In this document: piece by piece, positions 50,169-64,000 of the stretch
How the letters are laid out: each line of letters opens with the position of its first letter
Position numbering within the stretch: the stretch's first letter is position 1
Virus record (IMG/VR): IMGVR_UViG_3300032053_005343
Span: 64,001-128,000 of that record
DNA length: 64,000 nucleotides
Origin: a virus
Direction: 5' to 3' (one strand)
Notes under the pieces: generated by a model
What the model saw: only the letters and a program-made list of their open reading frames with translations
Databases searched by the model: none
What the model was told of the DNA's origin: nothing
Program-made: the position numbers and the translations under genes

Positions 50169-50302
50169 AAACTACTATCTGTATAGTTCGTTTTCGTACT
50201 TTTGTTTCACAGAAAATTTGAGAATTCGTTAACCCTATATTTTATAACTATTTATGAATGAAAATTTTTTTGAGGAAGAGATTTGTGATTTAAATATTTA
50301 CT

Positions 50303-50824
50303 TTATTTTTTTAATCTAGGTTTAAATTTTCTTCTATTATTTGATTGCTCTTTCATCGTAGACCACTTACAATTTTCTTTGTAATAACCTTCGCTATTGT
50401 TTATTCTATCAATTGAATATTCTTTTCCAGGTCTTTCTCCCATATCTTCTAAGAAATTCTGAAATGATCCACCCATTTTAATATTCCATCTATCACAAAC
50501 GGTAATTCCGCGACCTCCGTAGTCTTGATGTCTTTTATAATTTGGATTATTGCATCTATTGAGCATATTAGTCCATGATCTATGTGTTATTGATTCTTTC
50601 CCAACCCTGCTGTGTCCGTGCTTTGTTGCATTTTTAATTTCTTTAAACAAACACCCACAACTTTGTGTTCGTCCAACGAGAAGACTATTTCCAATAATTG
50701 TTTTAATGTTTCCACAATTGCATTTACAAGACCACAGATATTGTCCATGTCTATTTTTACCCGATAGACCTATAACTAAAAGTCTTCCAAATTTTTGTCC
50801 AATTAAATCAATGAATTTTCCCAT
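50303..50824 (-). mobile_element. Free-standing HNH homing endonuclease (DLTG family, no C-terminal HTH)
   Basis: DLIGQKFGRL, SCGC, YGGRGITVCDRW, IDRINN. Confidence 0.85.
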
Positions 50825-50870
50825 ACTATATTATACTATTTTTTATCAGATTTTTAATTAAATTTTTACT

Positions 50871-51038
50871 TTATTTTTCAACAATATCTGTTAGAGGAAC
50901 TAAAACATTGGCTCGGATATCAAGAATATTAACTAGGGCTTCCGAATCAAAGATTTCAAGAATTATTCCATCCGAACAGACACGTCCCCATTCTAGATCG
51001 TCTATGTCTACGTGAACAACGTCGTCTACCATCATCAT
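50871..51038 (-). CDS. Small acidic protein (55 aa, not in ORF track)
   Basis: Manual translation MMMVDDVVHVDIDDLEWGRVCSDG...; AGGAGA Shine-Dalgarno. Confidence 0.6.
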   Translation of the reverse strand: MMMVDDVVHVDIDDLEWGRVCSDGIILEIFDSEALVNILDIRANVLVPLTDIVEK

Positions 51039-54543: not shown

Positions 54544-55199
54544 TTTATTTTTTTTCTATATTTTTTAACTGGTGTTGTTAATGCCTTTTCTATTGACCAC
54601 CCAAGCCTATATAATCTGATCCATAATGTATTTGGATTAATATTATATTCTTTCGCCCAATCTATTAAAAATTGTGTTTTATTATTAAATGTTATTGGTC
54701 TATTCCAACGTTGATTTCTACGTTGCTCTTTTCTAGAAGACAGTTTCCAATTGTTAAAATCATAATTTCCATTATTATCTATTCTGTCTAACGTTAATCC
54801 TTTTGGTATTTCGCCAATATCTTCAAGAAAATTTTCAAACCCAGTTTTCTTGTTTAACCATCTTTCACAAACAGTTATTCCTCGTTCTCCATAATTTTTA
54901 TAATCTTTATTATTTTTATTAAAACATCTAGATTTCATATCTTGCCATGTTTTATATATTTTTGATTTTTTATTTCTTGCAAGACCATGCTTTAAATTTA
55001 ATCCATTTTTTATTTTTTCTTTATATAGACATCCACAACTCTTTGTATTCCCGCTCCTAAGACTATTTCCAGGAACAATTATTTCCTTGCCGCATTCACA
55101 CAAACAAGACCATGTTATGTGTCCATCTTTTGCATAACCAATTCTTTTCATAACTGTTAATCTACTAAATTTTAATCCTGTTAAATCAACAAATTTCAT
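54540..55199 (-). mobile_element. Free-standing HNH homing endonuclease (DLTG family)
   Basis: DLTGLKFSRL, SCGC, YGERGITVCERW, LDRIDNN. Confidence 0.85.
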
Positions 55200-55218
55200 T
55201 CACGATATATCCTTCCTT

Positions 55219-56361
55219 TTAAATATCTTCTTCAACACGAACTCCGACAGGGAATCGTGGTAATCCATCAGAGGTTAGATTTTGAAATTTGACAGTTATT
55301 TGTTTTCCAATAACTATTTCTGGATTAATTAGATATTTTTTAAGATTTCCCAAAGACCCTTCCATTTTGCAGGAAAATTCATTACCCGTTTTCGTCCTAC
55401 ATATAAAAATTGCACAATCTACCATTCTCCCTTTCCCATTTTTTACACCTATGATTTCGAATTCATCGTCGGAGAATAATTTTATTTTTTGTAAATCATA
55501 AGACCTACCGTGTTTATACAAACTTTGAGCATTGCGTACCATACTTCCTTCCCACCCCCCGGCCAAATCTTTTTCAAATAAATCCATCAATTCTTCGACA
55601 TTGTTGACTTTCCGAGTTTCAACTTTTACAACCTTACTTCCGGCAAATTTTATTTTTTGAATTTTTTCTGTTCTTTCTTCAAAAGTCAAAGAATCATCTA
55701 TTAAATCATAAACATGATACTGGACCACTTCATATCCAGGTTTTGGGTTCTGTGATCTTATGAAGGATGTTATTTCTTCAAAATTATTTTTATAGGCGTG
55801 ATTATAAAGCTCCCCATCAAGAACAATACTTTCATTTGGAAATGTTGCTTCCATTACTTTGATAATATGGGGAACACTAGTTATTGGTTTGCGGGTGCGA
55901 GACCACAAAGTACACTTCCCATTATTTACAACACAGGCACAGCGATGACCGTCGAGCTTACTTTGAGAGTAACAAGGATAAATAATTTTTGATTCGTGAT
56001 CCTTGAACCGATGGGCAAGCATCACCTCCGCGCCCCCAGTTATAAACTCCTTATCCACCTTTCCTTGTCTCGCTTCCGCCTCTGTTTGACAGTATCCTGA
56101 TTTTAATTTTTTCTCCCATTGGGATTGTGCTTCAGACAAAGCTTGTTCTTCTGGGGAAGTTTCATTGACCTTTCCGATGTTTTTCCCTGCATTTATTTCA
56201 TCTTTTGTTTCCTGGATTTTGCCATTTATTTTACCATATTTTTTAATAATTATATTATCTTTTACAGATATATTCCATTGTTGGATTGAACCATCATTGT
56301 TTTTTGAATAAAGTGTGGGAAAATTTTTAATCATTATTTTATTCTCCTGTCCTAATTTCAT
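55219..56361 (-). CDS. ATP-dependent DNA ligase with N-terminal WGR-like domain
   Basis: SKLDGHR, LDGELY, YHVYD, EGSMVR, LQKIK, PRFP. Confidence 0.9.
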   Translation of the reverse strand: MKLGQENKIMIKNFPTLYSKNNDGSIQQWNISVKDNIIIKKYGKINGKIQETKDEINAGKNIGKVNETSPEEQALSEAQSQWEKKLKSGYCQTEAEARQGKVDKEFITGGAEVMLAHRFKDHESKIIYPCYSQSKLDGHRCACVVNNGKCTLWSRTRKPITSVPHIIKVMEATFPNESIVLDGELYNHAYKNNFEEITSFIRSQNPKPGYEVVQYHVYDLIDDSLTFEERTEKIQKIKFAGSKVVKVETRKVNNVEELMDLFEKDLAGGWEGSMVRNAQSLYKHGRSYDLQKIKLFSDDEFEIIGVKNGKGRMVDCAIFICRTKTGNEFSCKMEGSLGNLKKYLINPEIVIGKQITVKFQNLTSDGLPRFPVGVRVEEDI

Positions 56362-56549
56362 TTAAATGTCCTTCCTACTGATGGGTGAATCATTATATCT
56401 GATTCTATCATAGCGCGAAGTCTTGCTTCGTAATTTTCAATTGCTAATTTGCTAACTCTAGTAATTTGTTTTTCAAATCCTGGTCTAAGTGCCGCTATTT
56501 TTGCCAATATAAATTTCTTAGTGGCAGATTGATTTAATATGCTGTTCAT
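56358..56549 (-). CDS. Small protein, candidate histone fold
   Basis: LNQSATKKFI...RVS.LAIE..E..L...I......GRTFK. Confidence 0.45.
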   Translation of the reverse strand: MNSILNQSATKKFILAKIAALRPGFEKQITRVSKLAIENYEARLRAMIESDIMIHPSVGRTFK

Positions 56550-56740
56550 TAATTTCTCTCTTTCTGCTTAGTGCTGGTTTTCATATTGTATTCTTTTTTC
56601 TTCGTGGAGGATATTGTTTTACCTATCGAATCCGCTATCTCTTTTATGAAATGATCGCATTCAGGTCCGACGAAATTATTTCCTTCTATTGACACATCTC
56701 CTGTTTTGGTTATATCTACTATAATTTTTTTATTATTCAT
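56549..56740 (-). CDS. DUF2997-like protein
   Basis: IIVDITKTGDVSIEGNNFVGPEC....I..SIG......KKEY. Confidence 0.75.
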   Translation of the reverse strand: MNNKKIIVDITKTGDVSIEGNNFVGPECDHFIKEIADSIGKTISSTKKKEYNMKTSTKQKERN

Positions 56741-57026
56741 TATAATATTTACCCCCGCATTGAAAATTTTCTATCTCCCATTCGACGCACTTATCTCTAA
56801 TCTTATTTTGATAGACAATTTCATTTGTTTGTGCGTTTATAATTTCCCAATATTGTTTTTCTTGATTAAACAAAATATGAGATGCTCTACGGATATTTGT
56901 TACTAAACCTAGATCATATAAATCTATAAAATCATTATAAATCGTTGATATATTGCCTTTTTCATTTATTTCCATAATAGGTATTTGCATTATTATTTTC
57001 CTTTCGTCAAATCGTTGAGGCAACAT
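56733..57026 (-). CDS. Small protein of the DUF2997/DUF1257-associated type
   Basis: IYND.IDL..LG....IRRASHI...W...R..C..WE. Confidence 0.55.
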   Translation of the reverse strand: MLPQRFDERKIIMQIPIMEINEKGNISTIYNDFIDLYDLGLVTNIRRASHILFNQEKQYWEIINAQTNEIVYQNKIRDKCVEWEIENFQCGGKYYNE

Positions 57027-57232
57027 CTCAATTCGTGGGAATCTAGATCTTTTGCATCTCTCCCATTTATTTTTACATTAACGATATCGTTTGCACCATT
57101 TAATTCTACATATACTCTTCTGTCGCTTATTGTAGAACAGGGCCATTGCGCATTAGGTCTGCGACTCCATTTAAACGTGTCGTTTTGGGACAACCACACC
57201 CTCGTTGTGTTTCCTATTTTTTTAATTTTCAT
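56993..57232 (-). CDS. Hypothetical protein
   Basis: In-operon ORF; WPCSTI. Confidence 0.55.
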   Translation of the reverse strand: MKIKKIGNTTRVWLSQNDTFKWSRRPNAQWPCSTISDRRVYVELNGANDIVNVKINGRDAKDLDSHELRCCLNDLTKGK

Positions 57233-57552
57233 AGAATTATTTTCCTCAATAGTTTTTTGGTTTGTTCTGCAATAATTTTTTGCTCAAACTCGGCTTTATG
57301 CTCAGTACATGTATTGTTTTTTATATTACACATTACAAAAAATGTTTGTGGGCCAATCAAATCTATGCCATTTTCACGAGCCTTTTTTGCCTTAGTTGAT
57401 TGGCTATTCATATCCATTATAACTAGTATAGTTGTTTTATTAGTTATAGACTTTGTGACCGATGCTCCAGCCTTGATAGCTATGTCTGTCATTTGATTAC
57501 GAGATATTGGACCTTTCCCGGTGAAACAGAATACTATATCTTTATTTAACAT
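57229..57552 (-). CDS. Stand-alone BRCT domain protein ending RKIIL
   Basis: FCFTG...SR......GASVTKSITNKTTILV....STKAKKA...GI. Confidence 0.82.
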   Translation of the reverse strand: MLNKDIVFCFTGKGPISRNQMTDIAIKAGASVTKSITNKTTILVIMDMNSQSTKAKKARENGIDLIGPQTFFVMCNIKNNTCTEHKAEFEQKIIAEQTKKLLRKIIL

Positions 57553-57561
57553 ATTTAGCCT

Positions 57562-59628
57562 CTATATCAGAATAAATTCACACCCCCTCTGAAAATCTTG
57601 AATGTTATCAAAACCGGCATAACTTATCGCGCTTCTTAATGCCCCCGCATACCTATTTAAAAGTGATTCTACTGGTTCTCCTATGTCAAGATGAATTAAT
57701 TTGCCCTCTGCCGAAGTTCCTGGTTTTAAACCACCCTTCCATTTATTCTGGACATATTCACTATTGCCACACCACGTATATTTATTGTTTCTTCTTACAC
57801 ATAATATTCCATTAGGAACCTCTGCGCAATACACTTTGCCACTATAATCTATAAAACTATAGTGTTTTGGGAGGATGGTGGGGTTATGCCAATATTTACC
57901 TACATAAACAGAAAATGAATCATATTTTCTAACGAAACTTTTCCCATTAATTTCTCCTAAAGATCCCTTTGGATGATTCAAGTGAATTGTTGGAGTTAAT
58001 CCACATTTTATACATATCTCTGATATATCGTCTATAAATTTAGTGGAAGAACTAGTTATAGAATTTCTGTTTTTACAACCGTCACCGAGAAATATTGAAT
58101 TTATTAAAATCTCTAATAATTTAGTCGGTAGATTTTTAATTTTTTTCGGAATAAATTTTTCATGAGCCTTCCCAAATTTCATCAAATAACTGCAAAGGGG
58201 CATGTTTTGTATTGTAAGTTCATAATTTTTATTCCTTTTTCTTACAAAGGAACCAATATTATATTTTCTTAATAAGGTTACATAATGATTTATCAATTTT
58301 TTATTATTATTTGAAATACTTATGGAATACACAAAATGATTAGGATTATAACTGATATGTTTTTTTGATTTTGATATTCTTTTATTTGCCCACCCTTCTG
58401 CTAACCAGAATCCAAAAAAATCAATCCATTCTTCTGTCAGAAAATTTGTTCCTATTTTCTTATATTTATTTTTATATCCAGAGACAACATCGGGTATCTT
58501 AAAAAATTTGGAATATTCTCCCTTCCATCCGCATATTTTTTGATACTTAAAATTTTCCTTACAACACCGTTCCGCCTTAACGAATTTAAATTTTTCTTTA
58601 TATCCATCCTTAATTCTTGCTCGTTTAGCAACATACATTCTGTGATTTGGTGTTACTAATAAATCAATAGCTTTATGATTTATATTTATCATTTCCCCGT
58701 TATAATTATAATTAAAAATATTTGTTGGTTTTTGAAATTCCATTAATTTTGTTTCTGTATTTAAAGTTGCTAAATCGTCAGATAATTTTATTTCTGAAAA
58801 ATTTTTCCATCCATTGATGGTTAATATTTCTGTGTCGTCGCTATAACATGACATGCCCGCCAGAATTTTCTTCTTTATCCCATCAATTTCTATCGTTTCT
58901 GAAGCACTCTCTGGGCATCTGGCGAATATACTACCAGCCATAGCACAACTAGCTCCTGCCCCGATAGCTTTGGTGAAATCGGCGGGGCAACGAATGTTCC
59001 CGTCACTAATGATTGGCATACCATATTTTTGTGAGATTTCTTTTAAATCATAGATAGCAGAAAATTGATTTTTTGTACAACCAACTACTGTCGCCGTCGA
59101 ACAGGAATTACCACCACCTATGCCGATTTTTATTGCATCTACATAATCATTGAACATCCCTATCATATCAGGATTAATAGTATTTCCGGCGACAACTTTT
59201 ATTGTTGGATAGAATTTTTTTATATGTTGGCACATTTGTAATGCATATTTATTAAAACCATGAGCTACATCGACGAAAATAATGTTAGATCCAGCTTTTA
59301 TTAATTTTTCAACCAATATATAATCTGAATCTTTTATTCCAATGGAAACCGCAACAGAGGGAATTTCCTTTGTTATTTTTTTTGTTTCCGATATATAATC
59401 ATCTGTATTTGGAAAAGCTCTGTGTAAAACCCCCATAGCCCCAAGCCTATAAAGCCCTATCGAGAATTCCGCATTCGTGACTGTTGACATATTCGCTGCC
59501 AAAAGGGGAAGTGGACGGATTACTCCGCGAATTATCTCGCTTTTTATTTTTGTGTCAAGCCGACTTTTGCAAATATTCTCTTTTTGATAAATTGCTATGT
59601 CAGAAAATTTATATGATTTTTTAAACAT
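57562..59628 (-). CDS. IMP dehydrogenase / GMP reductase (no CBS domains), intein-containing
   Basis: AANMSTV, VDVAHG, VAGN, IGIGGGNSCST, ISDGNI, KAIGAGA, AEG, LRSAISY. Confidence 0.88.
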   Translation of the reverse strand: MFKKSYKFSDIAIYQKENICKSRLDTKIKSEIIRGVIRPLPLLAANMSTVTNAEFSIGLYRLGAMGVLHRAFPNTDDYISETKKITKEIPSVAVSIGIKDSDYILVEKLIKAGSNIIFVDVAHGFNKYALQMCQHIKKFYPTIKVVAGNTINPDMIGMFNDYVDAIKIGIGGGNSCSTATVVGCTKNQFSAIYDLKEISQKYGMPIISDGNIRCPADFTKAIGAGASCAMAGSIFARCPESASETIEIDGIKKKILAGMSCYSDDTEILTINGWKNFSEIKLSDDLATLNTETKLMEFQKPTNIFNYNYNGEMININHKAIDLLVTPNHRMYVAKRARIKDGYKEKFKFVKAERCCKENFKYQKICGWKGEYSKFFKIPDVVSGYKNKYKKIGTNFLTEEWIDFFGFWLAEGWANKRISKSKKHISYNPNHFVYSISISNNNKKLINHYVTLLRKYNIGSFVRKRNKNYELTIQNMPLCSYLMKFGKAHEKFIPKKIKNLPTKLLEILINSIFLGDGCKNRNSITSSSTKFIDDISEICIKCGLTPTIHLNHPKGSLGEINGKSFVRKYDSFSVYVGKYWHNPTILPKHYSFIDYSGKVYCAEVPNGILCVRRNNKYTWCGNSEYVQNKWKGGLKPGTSAEGKLIHLDIGEPVESLLNRYAGALRSAISYAGFDNIQDFQRGCEFILI
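57763..58848 (-). mobile_element. Intein with LAGLIDADG-type endonuclease in the IMPDH/GMPR gene (362 aa)
   Basis: AGMS|CYSDDTEILT...VTPNHRM...FGFWLAEG...IFLGDG...VYCAEV...WCGN|SEY. Confidence 0.9.
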
Positions 59629-60254
59629 TATTTTATTTTTCTCCTGATGGGTTCGTTTAATGCTCTATCAATATTCCAACCCCTCCTTATTCTTGTCCGA
59701 AGTGTATCGTAAGGAAGATTATATTCTTCGGCCCAGGCTGCAATACATTGTGTTTTACCTTTATATGTTAACATATGGCTATCTCTTCTGTTGTAATTAT
59801 TTTCTTTATTGGTGCTCCATCGACAATTCTTTTTATGATATCCTTTATTGTTATCAATTCTATCTATCTGATGCTTCTTGCTTGGCGGTAGTCCCATGTC
59901 ATTAAGAAAATTAATAAATCCGTTATTTTTAGGCAACCACCTTTTGCAAACCGTAATGCCTCTATTTCCGTAATCTTTATATCTTGGATTTTTGGGGTTG
60001 GTACACCTTTGAATCATAGATTTCCATATTTTATCAATATGAGAATTGCTAAGCCCATGTTTGGTCATTATATCTTTGTGCAGGCATCCGCAACTTTTTG
60101 AATCTCCTGTTCTTAAACTATATCCGTCTATATTTTTTATGATTCCGCAACTACATTCACATTTCCATCTAGATTTCTTTTTGTTGGTGTTTATTTGTTT
60201 AAGAATTGTCCATCTTCCAAATTTTAATCCCGTTAAATCAATAAATTTGCCCAT
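59628..60254 (-). mobile_element. Free-standing HNH homing endonuclease (DLTG family)
   Basis: DLTGLKFGRW, SCGC, YGNRGITVC, IDRIDNN. Confidence 0.85.
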
Positions 60255-60370
60255 TACCTATATTCCCTTATTTCCCCTCTATTTTTTGCGTCTAGCCTAC
60301 TATTACAAATATTTTCTTTTTGGCAAATTGCTACGTCCTTAAAATTATATGATCGGACTAAATCGCTCAT
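60254..60370 (-). pseudogene. 38-codon duplicate of the IMPDH/GMPR N-terminus (orphaned 5' stub)
   Basis: MSDLVRSYNFKDVAICQKENICNSRLDAKNRGEIREYR* versus the IMPDH start MFKKSYKFSDIAIYQKENICKSRLDTKIKSEIIR. Confidence 0.85.
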
Positions 60371-60375
60371 TTATT

Positions 60376-61047
60376 TTATTCCTTGATATGTTTCCATGTT
60401 ATTTTATGTGTCAATAACCAAATTGTTTTATAGCTGGCTCCATATTTTATAACTAATTCCTTATAAGACAATCCTTTTTTATGATCTCTTATAATGTCTA
60501 TCGCTGTTTTTTCGTTTATTGTAGCTGCTCCGTGCTTACTTCCTGGTTGACTTGATTGTGGTTTCGGGATACCAATCTGTGCTTTTCTAATTTTTTCCTT
60601 AACTAAACTGGGTCGGTGTCGTCCCTTTAAAGCAATACTTAATTTTAATTTATGTTCTTTGGTGAGCCTTGTTCCTTTTTTAGAATTGCTTATTTTTTCT
60701 TTTGTTGCTCTTGTATGATTCCGGCCCAACATTGGAGTAATAGTATTTTTAGAAATATTGAATCCAATATTTGAATTATAACATTTTGTTTGGTCTAACC
60801 ACAATTGTTCTTTTATTGATAATTTTTTTATATCATAAACAATTTCAATTATTTCAAATTTAAAATTTTCTTTTCCATATTTATTCCATGAGTTTTGTAA
60901 ATAGGTATTGATATGATTTCCGTTTTTTAATCTAGATAAATGAAACTCGAACCGTCTTTTAAGATTAATAGCACTTCCTATATAAAATTTTCCTGTTGAT
61001 GAACAGGTTATTCTATAAATACCAGAGATATAACCTTTAATAAACAT
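60376..61047 (-). mobile_element. GIY-YIG homing endonuclease with NUMOD3 repeats
   Basis: GIYRITC..FYIGSA; HTRATKEKIS, LTKEHKLKLS. Confidence 0.85.
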
Positions 61048-61053
61048 AAAATT

Positions 61054-61245
61054 TTAACATACACTTCCTTTGCTTATATGACGACCATTTGTGATTTTAA
61101 ATTTTGGATTACAGACAAAATCTTCAATAGGTATTCCTTCGGGAATAAAATCTTCCGATAGTTCGCAAAACATAGTAAAAATTGTTTCCTTATCTCTTAT
61201 TAGTGTACAGTATCCCTCGCTGTTAAAATATAATATTTTTTGCAT
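61054..61245 (-). CDS. Hypothetical protein
   Basis: In-operon ORF. Confidence 0.45.
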   Translation of the reverse strand: MQKILYFNSEGYCTLIRDKETIFTMFCELSEDFIPEGIPIEDFVCNPKFKITNGRHISKGSVC

Positions 61246-61256
61246 TTCATTTTCCT

Positions 61257-61670
61257 TTATCTATATCCATGAATTGTTACCCTCTGTTTACCGTCTGGTA
61301 ATTTGGTTCTAGATACTTGTCTACCTTTCTTTTCTTGTTGAAGGCGAATTGCTTGGAAAGCGTAGTTTTGTTTCAACTTATTCGTCCAGTGTTCCGAATA
61401 TTTAGTTTTGTCAAATTCTGATATAATAGCCGTATAGGTATTATCTTCGTTTTTAATAAATCCCAGGTCGTTTGAAGACATTCCCACATTTTTACGACGA
61501 ATAATAATATTAGCTTTATCTTGTCTTAAATCTCCCCTATATCCGAAAAGATGTTGTGGTTCATCATAAATTTCTATTTGTTCCCTTTGCCACAAGCCAG
61601 TTTCCATCAAAGCAAAAATTAAAGCTTCTTGATTTTTCATAGCAGTTTCAATTTGACAATAAAGGGACAT
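61257..61670 (-). CDS. DUF1257-like protein
   Basis: MS..CQIET.MKN..ALI.AL, LFGYRGD.R...A.IIIRR.NV...SNDLGF, L.Q.YA. Confidence 0.78.
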   Translation of the reverse strand: MSLYCQIETAMKNQEALIFALMETGLWQREQIEIYDEPQHLFGYRGDLRQDKANIIIRRKNVGMSSNDLGFIKNEDNTYTAIISEFDKTKYSEHWTNKLKQNYAFQAIRLQQEKKGRQVSRTKLPDGKQRVTIHGYR

Positions 61671-62314
61671 TATTTTTTTCTCCTATTATATTTTCTTATT
61701 GGTATTGTTAAAGCTTCTTCCATAGAATATCCGTATGTATCTATCCTTGTCATTATCGTATGATAATTTAGATTAAATTTTTTGCAATGATCTTTTAAAC
61801 ACAATCCATTAATGTTTATGTTAGTTTTCATGTTTCTATGTTGTTGTTTGTTTGTTGCCCATCTCCAGTTACCTGGAAAATACCCCTTGTTATTGTCTGT
61901 TCTATCAAGAGATTTTTTATATGGTGGATCGCCAACGTCTTTATAAAAATTTTCAAATCCGTTTTTCTTATTTGACCATCTTTTACAAACTGTAATTGGA
62001 GGGATTCTTCCTCCATAGTTCTTGTATGCTTTATGATTTTTGTCGTTACATCTAGAAATCATACTCGACCATATATAATAAATTTTAGTTTTGCATTTTT
62101 GGTGCTTGGTTCTATTTTTATTTCTTAATATTGTTTGTTCTTTACTAAAACATCCACAGCTTTTTGTGTGTTTACTTTTTAAATCACCGGATGTTACTTT
62201 TATTTCTTTTCCACAATCACACAAGCATAACCAAAGTATTTGGTTGGATCTATTTCTACCGTCCTGTTTAATAACGAGAAGTCTTTCAAATCTTTGCCCG
62301 ATTAAATCCATCAA
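61670..62314 (-). mobile_element. Free-standing HNH homing endonuclease (DLTG family)
   Basis: DLIGQRFERL, SCGC, YGGR, LDRTDNN. Confidence 0.85.
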
Positions 62315-62665
62315 TTATCTCCGTCCCGGATCAGTTAAGCTTTTACCAAAACAACCACTTACCGGCTCAAACATTGGCATTGGTATATTTTTGTTCATCG
62401 CTTTTTCTATTACGTGAGCCAAAAATCCTTGGCCGACCGGACTTCCTAACCACTGAATTAGTGTCGCTGCAAGTTTGTAATTTTCATTAGATTGAATTTC
62501 AACATAATGTTCATCTACATTCCCTGAAAACAAATGATCCAAAGTACAATTTCTTACAGCTAATTGGGTGTTTTCTTCTTGCCAACATTCGGCAAACAAT
62601 TTTTCTAAGGGTTCTCTATTGTATCTATGAGAAGAAAATCCTTTGAATTTATTTAAAATTTTCAT
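62315..62665 (-). CDS. Phage hypothetical protein
   Basis: EKLFAECW..EN; AATLIQWLGSPVGQGFL. Confidence 0.6.
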   Translation of the reverse strand: MKILNKFKGFSSHRYNREPLEKLFAECWQEENTQLAVRNCTLDHLFSGNVDEHYVEIQSNENYKLAATLIQWLGSPVGQGFLAHVIEKAMNKNIPMPMFEPVSGCFGKSLTDPGRR

Positions 62666-62666
62666 T

Positions 62667-62927
62667 TTAATTGTCCGTAACCTGAAGAGAAAGTGGTTCT
62701 ACCATTGTATTTTCGCTTATTCCGTGCTCGTCGCCGTTTGACAGATCCACAAATCTTGCGGGCCAAGCCTCCATACATTCTGTTATACAAAATCTTCCAT
62801 CTGTTCTTATACATATGTGATATTGAGATGGAGCAGATCTTGAATCTGGCCAATATTTAAAACATTCCCCAACACCAATATTTCTTGCTTCGGTCATTTT
62901 TGGCTTATTTTCAATATTAATTTTCAT
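62667..62927 (-). CDS. Hypothetical protein
   Basis: In-operon ORF. Confidence 0.5.
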   Translation of the reverse strand: MKINIENKPKMTEARNIGVGECFKYWPDSRSAPSQYHICIRTDGRFCITECMEAWPARFVDLSNGDEHGISENTMVEPLSLQVTDN

Positions 62928-63096
62928 TTCGAACCCCTTCTATGGATCTTGAAAAATTTCCTTCGCCATCATAACCAATTGGTTGACCAGGAAATAAACG
63001 ATTGTGTTCTTCTGCTAGTTCATCGCCATCTAATGTTTCATATATCTCCGTAATTTGTTGTATAACTTCATCATATGTTATTTTTTTTGTTTGCAT
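62917..63096 (-). CDS. Small acidic protein (59 aa, not in ORF track)
   Basis: Manual translation MQTKKITYDEVIQQITEIYETLDGDELAEEHNRLFPG...; fills the gap between neighbours. Confidence 0.5.
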   Translation of the reverse strand: MQTKKITYDEVIQQITEIYETLDGDELAEEHNRLFPGQPIGYDGEGNFSRSIEGVRNEN

Positions 63097-63479
63097 TTAT
63101 ATTCTGCCCTTTCTAGTAAATCTTCAAAAAATTCTACTTTGTTTACTCTTCTATTTTTAGCAACAGTGTCGCATAATCTACAAATACTACCAATACGTGA
63201 TTTTAATTCGTTTAATTTATAAGTTAATTGATCTGAGGTGATACATTTTTTCATTGTCCGTTTATTAAAATCTTGAACATAAACATAATTTATATCTATA
63301 TTTGTACCTGAAACCCACGCAACTTCAATTATTATGCCTTGATTTTCATATAATTGAATACAAAAACATCTTGTAGAAATTAAATCTCGTATTTCTTTAA
63401 CTAATAAATTTGTTTCATATTTTTCTTTGTTCATTAGTTTCCTACCAATCCATAGTAAAACTTCCAAAATTTGTTTCAA
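63078..63479 (-). CDS. Hypothetical protein (start probably MNKEK)
   Basis: In-operon ORF. Confidence 0.5.
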   Translation of the reverse strand: MKQILEVLLWIGRKLMNKEKYETNLLVKEIRDLISTRCFCIQLYENQGIIIEVAWVSGTNIDINYVYVQDFNKRTMKKCITSDQLTYKLNELKSRIGSICRLCDTVAKNRRVNKVEFFEDLLERAEYKCKQKK

Positions 63480-63825
63480 TTAACATTTCTTTAAATTCAT
63501 CAATAGATAATTTATTAATCGTAGATGGCAATTCATCATATTCATCTATGTATTCTATATAATGCAAAAAATCTTCCCATGTATAAACCCTGTATTTATT
63601 ATAATCTCCAGGCCAACAAGAATCTACCATTTCTCCTATTATACCATACTGGGTCTTGTGTATAAGCCAAGGTTCATCTTTTTTTATACAATGTTCTGCC
63701 CAAATTTTAAATCTTTCTTTTAGTGGTTCATTTTTATTTGTTACAATTTTTCTTAATTTTGGTTGAGCCTCTTTAATCATTTTCTTATAGGAATTTAATT
63801 GTATAATTAAATCTTTATCCTTCAT
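63442..63825 (-). CDS. Hypothetical protein
   Basis: In-operon ORF. Confidence 0.55.
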   Translation of the reverse strand: MKDKDLIIQLNSYKKMIKEAQPKLRKIVTNKNEPLKERFKIWAEHCIKKDEPWLIHKTQYGIIGEMVDSCWPGDYNKYRVYTWEDFLHYIEYIDEYDELPSTINKLSIDEFKEMLIETNFGSFTMDW

Positions 63826-63826
63826 T

Positions 63827-64000
63827 TTATATAATCACCTTCCTTTTAAGGCTATTAATAAATTGTGAACCTTCTCCTTCTTCGAGAGAAGCTTGTTTTC
63901 TAATGCTGGATAAGGATAGAGAGACGGCTGTTTTCATTGCTGCGCTATCAAAACTTTTTGATGTTGTGCCCAAATCAAGATACTGGTCTCTAAAATCTGT
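63827..64000 (-). CDS. C-terminal end of a gene entering the window (possibly DUF3150-like), ending RKVII
   Basis: Manual translation ...TDFRDQYLDLG...SLSLSSIRKQASLEEGEGSQFINSLKRKVII*. Confidence 0.5.
   Translation of the reverse strand, partial: TDFRDQYLDLGTTSKSFDSAAMKTAVSLSLSSIRKQASLEEGEGSQFINSLKRKVII

What the first reader, a model, noticed from the sequence alone, without database searches (positions are those of the whole stretch)
59530..60370. Homing endonuclease flanked by a recoded duplicate of the IMPDH N-terminus: gene invasion by 5'-end replacement
Seen: an unannotated 38-codon ORF (60370-60254, MSDLVRSYNFKDVAICQKENICNSRLDAKNRGEIREYR*) is a clear homolog of the first ~30 residues of the IMPDH/GMPR starting at 59628 (MFKKSYKFSDIAIYQKENICKSRLDTKIKSEII). 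The HNH gene sits exactly between them. The stub's stop overlaps the HNH start (TAATG), and the HNH stop overlaps the IMPDH start. Several conserved residues use different codons in the two copies (GAA/GAG, TGT/TGC, AGG/CGG, CTA/CTT). Inference: the endonuclease entered the 5' end of the gene without an intron or intein. It left the old start as a translational-coupling leader for itself and supplied a diverged, possibly cleavage-resistant new N-terminus. This mirrors the terminus-duplicating endonuclease genes known in fungal mitochondria. I cannot say whether this N-terminal version has been described in phages.
Basis: partly seen in the sequence, partly recalled or inferred. Interest (0 to 1): 0.75.

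Follow-up and report, generated by a model that had tools for sequence, protein, structure and literature searches.

The report
Endonuclease gene flanked by duplicated gene start
In an uncultured sediment phage crowded with selfish DNA-cutting-enzyme genes, one such gene sits between a working nucleotide-metabolism gene and a dead 38-codon copy of that gene's start taken from a different variant, a scar showing how these elements pile up in front of a gene without breaking it.

Summary
The 38-codon ORF at 60254-60370(-) matches the start of the IMPDH/GMPR-like gene (19/29 residues, E 3e-11). An HNH-family endonuclease gene lies exactly between them with TAATG overlaps on both sides.

The two copies are not in-situ duplicates. 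The stub carries the "MxxL[IV]RSY...DAK..GEI" start found in other alleles. The live gene, both its start and its body, belongs to the "MFE[KR]SY" clade.

New here: the stub's last four codons and stop (REYR*) resemble the 3' end of DUF1257 (..GYR*), the gene that abuts IMPDH in endonuclease-free relatives. I read the stub as a chimeric scar of one illegitimate, probably microhomology-mediated, recombination. That event stacked a DUF1257-HNH-IMPDH(A) allele onto an orf63-GIY-YIG-IMPDH(B) allele.

- No intron was found.
- No B-type body or breakpoint was detected.
- Only this one of 33 endonuclease-like genes in the genome has such a duplication.
- A second contig shares GIY-stub-HNH-IMPDH::intein with 1 mismatch over about 3.4 kb.

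The leader role and cleavage resistance are untested.

This mirrors fungal mitochondrial mORF hybrids and yeast WHO elements. The scan has noted similar stubs on other DNA. I class it as a new member of a known kind.

The parts
57562..59628 (-). IMPDH/GMP-reductase-like gene (688 aa including an intein). Both its start (MFKKSYKF...) and its body belong to the type-A clade.
   Evidence: PF00478 E 4.2e-56, 190.9 bits against a cut-off of 25.6. NCBIfam IMPDH and GMPR equivalogs all fall below their cut-offs. The body tree puts it in a clade with 5 type-A homologues, support 100/98.
57763..58848 (-). LAGLIDADG intein (residues 261-622; starts with C, ends with N, followed by S)
   Evidence: PF14528 30.6 bits against 22.5. 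Boundaries come from alignment with intein-free homologues. One intein-free contig in run X7 joins 57760 to 58850.
59533..59628 (-). Live 5' end of IMPDH (codons 1-32), copy 2 of the repeat
   Evidence: BLASTP, blastn and tblastx. Nearest N-termini are P0001 and P0004.
59628..60254 (-). Free-standing HNH-family endonuclease gene (208 aa), one of at least 14 full-length paralogues in the genome
   Evidence: phrog_374 E 3.8e-69. 18 matches in the genome. The model shows beta-beta-alpha topology at residues 128-158. Weak similarity to PacI, Z 5.5.
60269..60370 (-). Stub codons 1-34: the displaced IMPDH start of type B (MSDLVRSY...DAKNRGEI)
   Evidence: Best N-terminal matches are P0016, P0012, P0006 and P0008 (scores 135-122), against 100 for the window's own gene.
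60254..60268 (-). Stub codons 35-38 plus stop (AGG GAA TAT AGG TAA). This tail resembles the 3' end of DUF1257. Its stop overlaps the HNH ATG.
   Evidence: 10/12 and 9/12 nt identical to the DUF1257 ends of L102 and L028. Across the ends of 181 genome ORFs the maximum is 8/12 and the mean 3.56.
60376..61047 (-). Free-standing GIY-YIG endonuclease gene (223 aa) directly upstream of the stub
   Evidence: PF01541 45.1 bits against 22.6, and NUMOD3. TIGR01453 99.5 bits against 56.05.
61054..61245 (-). orf63, a small ORF of unknown function between DUF1257 and GIY-YIG
   Evidence: ORF list. No family hit. 78% identical in the twin contig.
61257..61670 (-). DUF1257 gene, the neighbour of IMPDH in endonuclease-free relatives. 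It ends ...HGYR*.
   Evidence: PF06868 E 2.6e-12. Synteny in L102, L103, L104, L027 and L024.
61670..62314 (-). Second HNH-family paralogue, inserted between orf116 and DUF1257. It marks the outer edge of the block shared with the twin contig.
   Evidence: phrog_374 E 7.7e-60. In L102, orf116 and DUF1257 are adjacent. Similarity to the twin contig starts at 61894.

Best explanation
The stub is a recombination scar, not a designed part and not an exon. Two alleles of the DUF1257|IMPDH junction existed in related phages.

- Allele 1 had an HNH endonuclease gene wedged exactly between DUF1257 and a type-A IMPDH, with TAATG overlaps on both sides.
- Allele 2 had orf63 and a GIY-YIG endonuclease gene in front of a type-B IMPDH.

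A double-strand break was repaired on the other allele. It was most likely made by one of the endonucleases during co-infection. On one side there was no homology. The join therefore fell between codon 34 of IMPDH(B) and the last codons of DUF1257, probably at a short microhomology (GAAATAA-like).

The product keeps both endonuclease genes. It has an intact type-A IMPDH with its intein. It also has a 38-codon chimeric ORF made of IMPDH(B) codons 1-34 plus the DUF1257 tail REYR*.

Shown:
- the duplication itself;
- the different ancestry of the two copies;
- the absence of the endonuclease genes and of any stub in relatives;
- the type-A body;
- the DUF1257-like tail.

Inferred:
- the two parental alleles, neither of which was recovered;
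- the microhomology;
- that an endonuclease made the break.

Which side was the recipient is open. One version has HNH plus IMPDH(A) invading GIY-IMPDH(B), with a break near codon 34; I rate it about 45%. The mirror version has orf63-GIY plus the first 34 codons of IMPDH(B) invading DUF1257-HNH-IMPDH(A), with a break at the DUF1257 end; I rate it about 30%.

The stub keeps the original IMPDH(B) ribosome-binding region and ATG. If so, it is probably still translated and ends on the HNH start codon. I regard this as a by-product.
For: Duplication:
- BLASTP gives E 3e-11.
- 71 nt at 81.7% identity, the only long flank repeat among the 33 endonuclease-like ORFs screened.

Different ancestry:
- 9 of 120 homologue N-termini score higher with the stub than the window's own gene does (P0016 135 against 100).
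- 35 of 120 are nearer to the live start than the stub is.
- The two-residue-longer MxxL[IV]RSY start, AIC and DAK..GEI are shared with P0016, P0012 and P0008.

Empty sites:
- In L102 the DUF1257 stop lies 1 nt before the IMPDH ATG.
- DUF1257 also lies 17 to 284 nt upstream in L024, L103, L104 and L027.
- 0 of 16 non-twin loci have a second start copy, or a tblastn match (E<=1e-3) to the window's HNH or GIY proteins next to IMPDH.

Tail:
- The stub's 12 nt before its stop match DUF1257 ends at 10, 9, 8, 8, 7, 7, 6 and 6 of 12.
- Across 181 genome ORF ends the maximum is 8 and the mean 3.56.
- GGAAATAA occurs in L103's DUF1257 end, and GAGAAATAA in its IMPDH codons 31-34.

Body: the type-A clade has support 100/98, and the sister P0002 99/98.

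Plausibility:
- Microhomology-mediated rearrangement next to segB in T6 (PMC13096335, passages read).
- The WHO model of stacked elements and gene fragments (PMC7282813, abstract and section 10 read).

Recent mobility: the twin contig differs by 1 base over about 57600-61000, while its flanks diverge.
Against: - Neither parental allele was found (DUF1257-HNH-IMPDH(A), or GIY-IMPDH(B) intact). The best HNH relative elsewhere is 51% identical and the best full-length GIY relatives about 31-34%, and none sits next to IMPDH.
- The DUF1257-tail match covers only 12-15 nt. It is the best of 8 related sequences. My estimate of the chance probability is about 1e-3; this is a binomial reckoning, not a tool result.
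- At DNA level the stub is no closer to L103 (66/87), the only partly type-B locus with DNA, than to its own gene (66/87).
- N-terminal type does not track the body tree in the family at all (A 8 changes, B 6, no better than shuffles). 'Type A' and 'type B' are therefore labels for starts, not for whole alleles.
- No cleavage data exist.
Confidence: 0.7

Rival explanations
1. The mobile unit is HNH plus a short resistant 5' end. It entered a resident type-B IMPDH at about codon 34, and the body is still the resident's. The stub is kept as a working part: a translational-coupling leader for HNH, or a homology arm for the next round of homing.
For: - The stub keeps an ATG, an AAGGAA ribosome-binding-like motif and an open frame ending on the HNH ATG.
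- It is 100% conserved in the twin contig.
- The start and the end of the gene are phylogenetically uncoupled from the middle, with correlations of 0.35 and -0.01 against about 0.7. The WHO model predicts this for a repeatedly replaced gene end (PMC7282813 section 10).
Against: - The body clusters with type-A sequences, like the live start, and no breakpoint is seen.
- The whole 3.4 kb is identical in the twin contig, so conservation of the stub says nothing.
- HNH has its own AAGGGA motif 9 nt upstream of its ATG.
- TAATG and ATGA overlaps are general in this genome.
- The stop looks inherited from DUF1257.
- Only 1 of 33 endonuclease-like ORFs has such a stub.
Confidence: 0.15
2. In-situ tandem duplication of the IMPDH 5' end when the HNH gene was inserted (a long target-site duplication), followed by divergence of the unused copy.
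For: Direct repeats flank the insert. At DNA level the stub is as close to its own gene as to L103, 66/87 each.
Against: - The stub shares a two-residue-longer start and several residues with other alleles. It scores higher with 9 of 120 homologues than with its own gene.
- The live start is nearer to 35 of 120 homologues than to the stub.
- The stub shows no frameshift or stop, as a drifting copy at 24% DNA divergence might.
- The tail is not IMPDH-like.
Confidence: 0.06
3. The stub is exon 1 and the HNH gene lies in an intron, or is bypassed by some other recoding event.
For: The GIY-YIG neighbour matches the NCBIfam 'group I intron endonuclease' subfamily. Phage endonuclease genes often sit in introns (general knowledge).
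Against: - No Rfam family matches at E<=1 in 55000-64000.
- The live gene has its own ATG and a full N-terminus aligned with the starts of 22 homologues.
- Splicing would duplicate 30 residues.
Confidence: 0.02
4. Assembly chimera of two co-occurring strains.
For: The source is a sediment metagenome with many related strains.
Against: The same junctions occur in a second viral contig. They also occur in separate contigs of four further runs with 0-1 differences (table 8).
Confidence: 0.02

Closest known systems
Mobile endonuclease ORFs (mORFs) of fungal mitochondria that create gene hybrids (Allomyces macrogynus atp6; Glomus atp6, atp9, cox2, nad3). Source: PMC3630166, abstract and passages read. 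Partial C-terminal duplications of atp6 and cob beside endonuclease ORFs: PMC6279837, passages read.
   Same: An endonuclease ORF lies between two diverged copies of one end of a host gene. One copy is in use and the other is a leftover. The two copies have different ancestry, pointing to transfer from another lineage. No intron or intein is involved.
   Different: There it is the 3' end; here it is the 5' end. There the leftover matches the native allele of close relatives and the gene is a demonstrable hybrid. Here the gene body goes with the copy in use, and no hybrid breakpoint is visible. Here the leftover also ends in a few codons of the former upstream neighbour (DUF1257), and a second endonuclease gene sits in front of it. 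The host is a phage, not an organelle.
WHO elements of Torulaspora and Lachancea yeasts homing into FBA1 (Coughlan et al. 2020, PMC7282813; abstract and section 10 read)
   Same: Elements and gene-end fragments are stacked next to a full-length gene. The gene end evolves discordantly with the rest. In the model, each arrival pushes the previous end and the older elements outward.
   Different: WHO proteins are intein-like LAGLIDADG-zinc-finger proteins acting in diploid meiosis, and cleavage and allele specificity were shown experimentally. Here there is one fragment only, the enzymes are of HNH and GIY-YIG types, and nothing is tested. The junction looks like a one-off illegitimate join, not a regular homology-arm mechanism.
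Free-standing homing endonucleases of T4-like phages ('intronless homing', SegF; mobE; SegB). These are recalled, and cited in PMC8351571 and PMC13096335 (passages read). 'HEG islands' bracketing essential genes in ICP1 and other phages: PMC10448857, passages read.
   Same: Endonuclease genes are inserted between genes and are present or absent among relatives. Flanks are co-converted, giving near-identical blocks in otherwise diverged genomes. Microhomology-mediated rearrangement next to segB has been shown in T6.
   Different: In the passages I read from these papers, no host-gene start duplicated around the endonuclease gene is described.

Membership tests
Free-standing HNH homing endonuclease gene | HNH / beta-beta-alpha-metal nuclease domain | tested here: inconclusive
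   PHROG profiles annotated as HNH endonuclease match strongly (phrog_374 E 3.8e-69, phrog_3377 1e-54). Pfam and NCBIfam give no hit and PDB sequence search gives none. The AF2 model (pLDDT 74.6) has strand-strand-helix at 128-158 over the DRIDNN...N...N motif. Foldseek finds nothing at E<=0.001. VIA-align matches the PacI HNH enzyme at Z 5.5, rmsd 3.2, 84 aligned, below the tool's own caution level.
Free-standing HNH homing endonuclease gene | Present or absent at one locus among related genomes; inserted between genes | tested here: met
   Absent next to IMPDH in 16 of 16 non-twin loci and present in the twin contig. In L102, DUF1257 and IMPDH abut. There are 18 matches in the genome, mostly with overlapping stop and start codons.
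Free-standing HNH homing endonuclease gene | Site-specific cleavage of the endonuclease-free allele and gene conversion | not testable with these tools
   Only indirect evidence: a 3.4-kb block with 1 mismatch shared with an otherwise diverged contig.
Terminus-duplicating endonuclease elements (mitochondrial mORF hybrids, WHO elements) | Endonuclease ORF flanked by two diverged copies of one end of the host gene | tested here: met
Terminus-duplicating endonuclease elements (mitochondrial mORF hybrids, WHO elements) | The host gene is a hybrid: a foreign end joined to a native body at a breakpoint near the duplication border | tested here: not met
   Sliding identity shows no switch. The body tree puts the gene with type-A sequences, like its own start. 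The nearest relatives are only about 73% identical, so a short tract could escape detection.
Terminus-duplicating endonuclease elements (mitochondrial mORF hybrids, WHO elements) | The two copies have different ancestry (transfer, not local duplication) | tested here: met
   This holds at protein level only; DNA of type-B relatives was not available.
Terminus-duplicating endonuclease elements (mitochondrial mORF hybrids, WHO elements) | The same unit (fragment + endonuclease + replacement end) recurs in several genomes as filled, empty and decayed sites | tested here: inconclusive
   Filled: the window and one twin contig. Empty: L102 and others. No decayed or independent filled site was found in viral or JGI metagenome contigs.
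Group I intron with endonuclease ORF | Ribozyme core, and a downstream exon that lacks its own start | tested here: not met
   No Rfam match at E<=1 (described families only). The downstream gene has its own ATG and a complete N-terminus.
IMPDH/GMPR family (PF00478) | Profile match above the curated cut-off | tested here: met
   190.9 bits against 25.6. No NCBIfam equivalog cut-off is reached, so the choice between IMPDH and GMP reductase is unresolved.
GIY-YIG homing endonuclease | GIY-YIG catalytic domain plus NUMOD-type DNA-binding module | tested here: met
   PF01541 45.1 bits against 22.6, PF07460 25.2 against 20.4. TIGR01453 99.5 against 56.05.
LAGLIDADG intein | In-frame insert with a C at its start, N at its end followed by S, and a LAGLIDADG domain; absent from homologues | tested here: met
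   An intein-free allele contig was seen in run X7. Protein splicing was not tested.

The most novel reading that the evidence does not exclude
The unit [IMPDH 5' fragment - HNH gene - diverged IMPDH 5' end] is a self-contained, WHO-like 'replace-and-insert' homing cassette of phages. The stub would serve as the upstream homology arm, so the cassette can enter any IMPDH allele whatever lies upstream. The diverged live start would make the carrier immune to its own enzyme. Repeated homing would build the observed stack (GIY-YIG older, HNH newer, intein inside). It would also keep the gene's 5' end phylogenetically uncoupled from its body.
Probability: 0.15. Interest if true: 0.7.

Novelty: new member of a known kind. 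Interest (0 to 1): 0.42.

Why it matters
It is a clean molecular fossil of how free-standing homing endonuclease genes pile up in front of a conserved phage gene without inactivating it. The junction can be read almost base by base: the first 34 codons of one allele, then the last four codons and stop of the former upstream neighbour, then the endonuclease gene.

It shows that when two endonuclease-bearing alleles of one site meet, an illegitimate join can yield a genome that carries both. Such a genome may be protected from both enzymes, though this is not tested. This may help explain the extreme endonuclease load of this phage, where 33 of 181 ORFs fall in one endonuclease-like cluster.

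It also gives concrete substrates for testing target sites of an abundant HNH family that Pfam does not recognise.

It does not reveal a new kind of element. The same logic is described for fungal mitochondria and yeast WHO elements, and this scan has met similar stubs in other phages.

Tried and rejected
- GenBank phage collection, blastn 'distant' with 57500-62400: no match.
- Rfam at E<=1 over 55000-64000: nothing.
- Promoter scan of 57400-62500: 27 sites against 26.4 expected. Terminator-like sites: 7 against 2.4, none placed between GIY, stub and HNH on the coding strand.
- Breakpoint search in the IMPDH body: no clear switch between type-A and type-B relatives.
- Search for orthologues of this HNH or GIY-YIG next to IMPDH in viral contigs: only the twin contig. 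The others are at most 51% (HNH) or, for near-full-length matches, 31-34% (GIY) identical and lie elsewhere.
- Genome-wide tblastx self-search for further stubs: too noisy to use. It was replaced by a flank-against-flank screen of 33 endonuclease-like ORFs. That screen found only the focal repeat and one 32-nt repeat.
- PDB sequence search for the HNH protein: one chance-level row.
- Foldseek against PDB: no match at E<=0.001.
- VIA-align wide: PacI at Z 5.5 only, with SH3/Tudor-like rows for residues 1-51.
- Expression: no RNA holder is listed among 14 runs.
- In the four runs laid, no contig joins stub to body across the HNH gene. Contigs cannot show absence.
- Several joints between 59931-60255 and 61937-62148 (table 5) come from contigs of other HNH paralogues and were set aside.
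- Literature: I found no paper describing a phage gene start duplicated around a free-standing endonuclease gene.
Full report
**What is there.**
On the minus strand the order is:
- HNH paralogue (61670-62314)
- DUF1257 (61257-61670)
- orf63 (61054-61245)
- GIY-YIG endonuclease gene (60376-61047)
- a 38-codon ORF, the stub (60254-60370)
- HNH-family endonuclease gene (59628-60254)
- an IMPDH/GMPR-like gene of 688 codons (57562-59628)

The IMPDH-like gene carries a LAGLIDADG intein at residues 261-622. The stub's stop and the HNH start share one base, and so do the HNH stop and the IMPDH start.

Family assignments:
- PF00478 for IMPDH, at 190.9 bits.
- PF01541, NUMOD3 and TIGR01453 for the GIY-YIG gene.
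- PF06868 for DUF1257.
- The 'HNH' gene has no Pfam or NCBIfam hit, but it matches PHROG families annotated as HNH endonuclease (phrog_374, E 3.8e-69).

A model built from nine paralogues (pLDDT 74.6) has a strand-strand-helix unit over the conserved DRIDNN...N motif. It resembles the HNH enzyme PacI only weakly, at Z 5.5.

**Is the duplication real?**
Yes. Stub residues 6-34 align with IMPDH residues 4-32 at 19/29 identity, E 3e-11. The DNA copies are 81.7% identical over 71 nt.

I compared the two 300-nt flanks of each of 33 endonuclease-like ORFs of the 137-kb genome. This ORF alone gave a long repeat (E 9e-17). One other ORF gave a 32-nt repeat.

The arrangement is also present in a second viral contig. 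Contigs of four further sediment metagenome runs bridge each junction. It is therefore not an assembly artefact.

**Relatives.**
A protein search with the N-extein returned 355 proteins at E<=1e-5. The closest are 65-73% identical, 325-332 residues long and without an intein. Their starts fall into two patterns:
- MFE[KR]SY.F... (here 'type A': P0001, P0002, P0004, P0005 and others). The live gene, MFKKSYKF, has this pattern.
- M[DN]xL[IV]RSY.F..VAI.QKENIC.SRLDAK.EGEI (here 'type B': P0008, P0012, P0016, P0018 and others). The stub, MSDLVRSYNFKDVAICQKENICNSRLDAKNRGEI, has this pattern.

In local-alignment scores, 9 of 120 homologue starts are nearer to the stub than the window's own gene is (P0016 135 against 100). 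And 35 of 120 are nearer to the live start than the stub is. The two copies are therefore of different ancestry and are not a local duplication that drifted.

DNA for true type-B relatives was not available. With the one partly B-like locus, L103, the DNA comparison is uninformative: 66/87 both ways.

**Empty sites.**
In 16 related loci other than the twin contig, the stub peptide hits only the gene's own start (15 loci) or nothing (L028). None has a tblastn match (E<=1e-3) to the window's HNH or GIY-YIG proteins beside IMPDH. Four of them (L022, L026, L028, L030) do carry unrelated HHxxG-type HNH motifs fused in frame to the N-terminus of IMPDH.

The conserved order is orf116 - DUF1257 - IMPDH - orf107 - orf97. 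In L102 the DUF1257 stop is one base from the IMPDH ATG. In L024 the gap is 17 nt. In L103, L104 and L027 it is about 280 nt. Both endonuclease genes, orf63 and the stub are thus insertions at the DUF1257|IMPDH junction.

**The junction.**
Similarity of the stub to IMPDH ends at codon 34 (...GEI). The remaining AGG GAA TAT AGG TAA (REYR*) resembles the 3' end of DUF1257, which reads ..[KRH]GYR* in all nine DUF1257 genes at hand, the window's own included. L102, for example, has AGG GGA TAT AGA TAA followed by T ATG.

I compared the 12 nt before the stop, anchored at the stop. The DUF1257 ends of seven relatives and of the window itself give 10, 9, 8, 8, 7, 7, 6 and 6 matches. The ends of 181 ORFs of this genome give a mean of 3.56 and a maximum of 8.

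The HNH gene therefore most likely once sat directly after DUF1257, with the same TAATG overlap. The stub's stop codon would be DUF1257's.

A relative's DUF1257 end (L103: GTG GAA ATA AAA GGA...) and its IMPDH codons 31-34 (GGA GAA ATA ATA) share GAAATAA. A 7-8-nt microhomology at the join is thus plausible but inferred, because the true parents are unknown.

**The gene body.**
A maximum-likelihood tree of residues 37 to the end, without the intein, places the window's gene in a clade with five type-A sequences (support 100/98; sister P0002, 99/98). Sliding identity shows no switch to type-B relatives. There is thus no sign that a type-B body survives. Either the conversion tract covered the whole gene, or the type-A gene was the resident.

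Across the family the type of start does not follow the body tree (8 and 6 changes, no better than shuffled labels). Both ends of the gene are uncoupled from the middle: the distance correlation is 0.35 for columns 1-36, about 0.7 mid-gene and -0.01 for the last 36 columns. This fits frequent recombination at both ends. It is not specific to the 5' end.

**Recent mobility.**
The twin contig differs from the window by one base between about 57600 and 61000, which is exactly GIY-YIG, stub, HNH and IMPDH with intein. It differs by 2-14 per 100 nt in orf63 and orf107, and is unalignable or under 75% identical beyond 56993 and 61894. This is the pattern expected from endonuclease-driven conversion with co-converted flanks. 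It gives no independent view of the state before the event.

**Reading.**
One illegitimate join between two endonuclease-bearing alleles explains every feature: DUF1257-HNH-IMPDH(A) and DUF1257-orf63-GIY-IMPDH(B). Two mirror versions exist.

In the first, HNH plus IMPDH(A) entered a GIY-IMPDH(B) genome after a break near codon 34. Perhaps a second break at the intein site helped, which would explain replacement of the whole body.

In the second, orf63-GIY plus the first 34 codons of IMPDH(B) entered a DUF1257-HNH-IMPDH(A) genome after a break at the DUF1257 end.

I favour the first (about 45% against 30%). Free-standing endonucleases typically cut conserved sequence of the neighbouring gene (general knowledge of the T4 seg and mob genes), and the stub ends inside the most conserved stretch of the 5' region. 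The data do not decide.

**The 'leader' idea.**
The translational-leader idea is possible, but the anatomy does not need it. The overlap is inherited. HNH has its own AAGGGA motif 9 nt upstream. Such overlaps are the rule in this genome.

The two repeats share at most 9 identical bases in a row. Loss of HNH by recombination between them should be rare. If it occurred, it would leave an intact B/A hybrid start.

**Comparison with what is known.**
The layout mirrors the mobile endonuclease ORFs of fungal mitochondria, which carry a foreign 3' end and leave the native one behind (PMC3630166; PMC6279837). It also mirrors the yeast WHO elements, whose repeated homing stacks elements and FBA1 fragments (PMC7282813).

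Papers on phage endonuclease genes that I read in part (PMC10448857, PMC8351571, PMC13096335) describe endonuclease islands, split genes and microhomology-mediated amplification. They do not describe a duplicated gene start. My seven searches found no such description.

Earlier notes of this scan report similar stubs on other DNA: a P22-like gene 10, a jumbo-phage gp6, a resolvase, pcrA and PNKP. The kind is therefore recurrent, and this is one more member. Its unusually legible junction and its setting between two endonuclease genes and an intein set it apart.

**Verdict.**
- I class it as a new member of a known kind, of moderate interest.

Noticed in passing
window 57760/58850 (IMPDH intein borders): One 193-nt contig in run X7 joins 57760 to 58850 with three other letters between. 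This is an intein-free allele of the same gene. The flanking serine codons are spelled differently: TCG and TCT instead of TCA and AGT. Depth is 2.2 with 32 nt on the short side, so the evidence is weak.
   Followed up: partly
window ~57600-61000 versus L001 (IMGVR_UViG_3300031873_000043): A block of about 3.4 kb covering exactly GIY-YIG, stub, HNH and IMPDH::intein differs by 1 base between two contigs. Their flanks diverge stepwise and then become unalignable. The outer edge at 61894 lies inside the second HNH paralogue, whose N-terminal half is replaced in the twin contig.
   Followed up: partly
window 50279-50310 and 50848-50878: A truncated HNH paralogue (50303-50824, 173 aa) is flanked by a 32-nt direct repeat at 87.5% identity. 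Its core of about 24 nt (AAAAATAAAGTAAA.ATTTAA) includes the stop and 3' flank of the upstream ORF. The endonuclease ORF therefore ends in a copy of its neighbour's end.
   Followed up: partly
L022, L026, L028, L030; P0041, P0046, P0053, P0080, P0108, P0111: Many more distant members of this IMPDH/GMPR family carry an in-frame N-terminal extension. It has an HHxxG.K.N-type HNH motif followed by a conserved 'L..LA..LV....I.FD....Y' module. Four of the 120 listed homologues carry PF13392. It could be a fused or domesticated endonuclease at the same gene end.
   Followed up: no
whole genome G000 (137 kb); window 1-64000: 33 of 181 predicted ORFs fall in one BLAST-linked cluster that contains the HNH, NUMOD4-type and GIY-YIG genes. 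Most have stop and start codons that abut or overlap those of their neighbours. The members were not checked one by one.
   Followed up: partly
IMPDH alignment of 23 sequences (window 57562-59628): Both the first 36 and the last 36 alignment columns are phylogenetically uncoupled from the middle of the gene. The distance correlations are 0.35 and -0.01, against about 0.7 mid-gene.
   Followed up: partly
window 61245-61257 versus L021 3111-3384; L103, L104, L027 upstream of IMPDH: The twin contig has about 270 extra bases between DUF1257 and orf63. Three endonuclease-free relatives have a spacer of about 280 nt between DUF1257 and IMPDH that shares an ATTCCATTCATGTT-like motif. Its nature is unknown.
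   Followed up: no
HNH protein residues 1-51 (window 60102-60254): The conserved N-terminal 'IDLxGxKFGRL' module of this endonuclease family is predicted to form a small SH3/Tudor/KOW-like beta-barrel, with Z 4-5.7 to many such domains.
   Followed up: no
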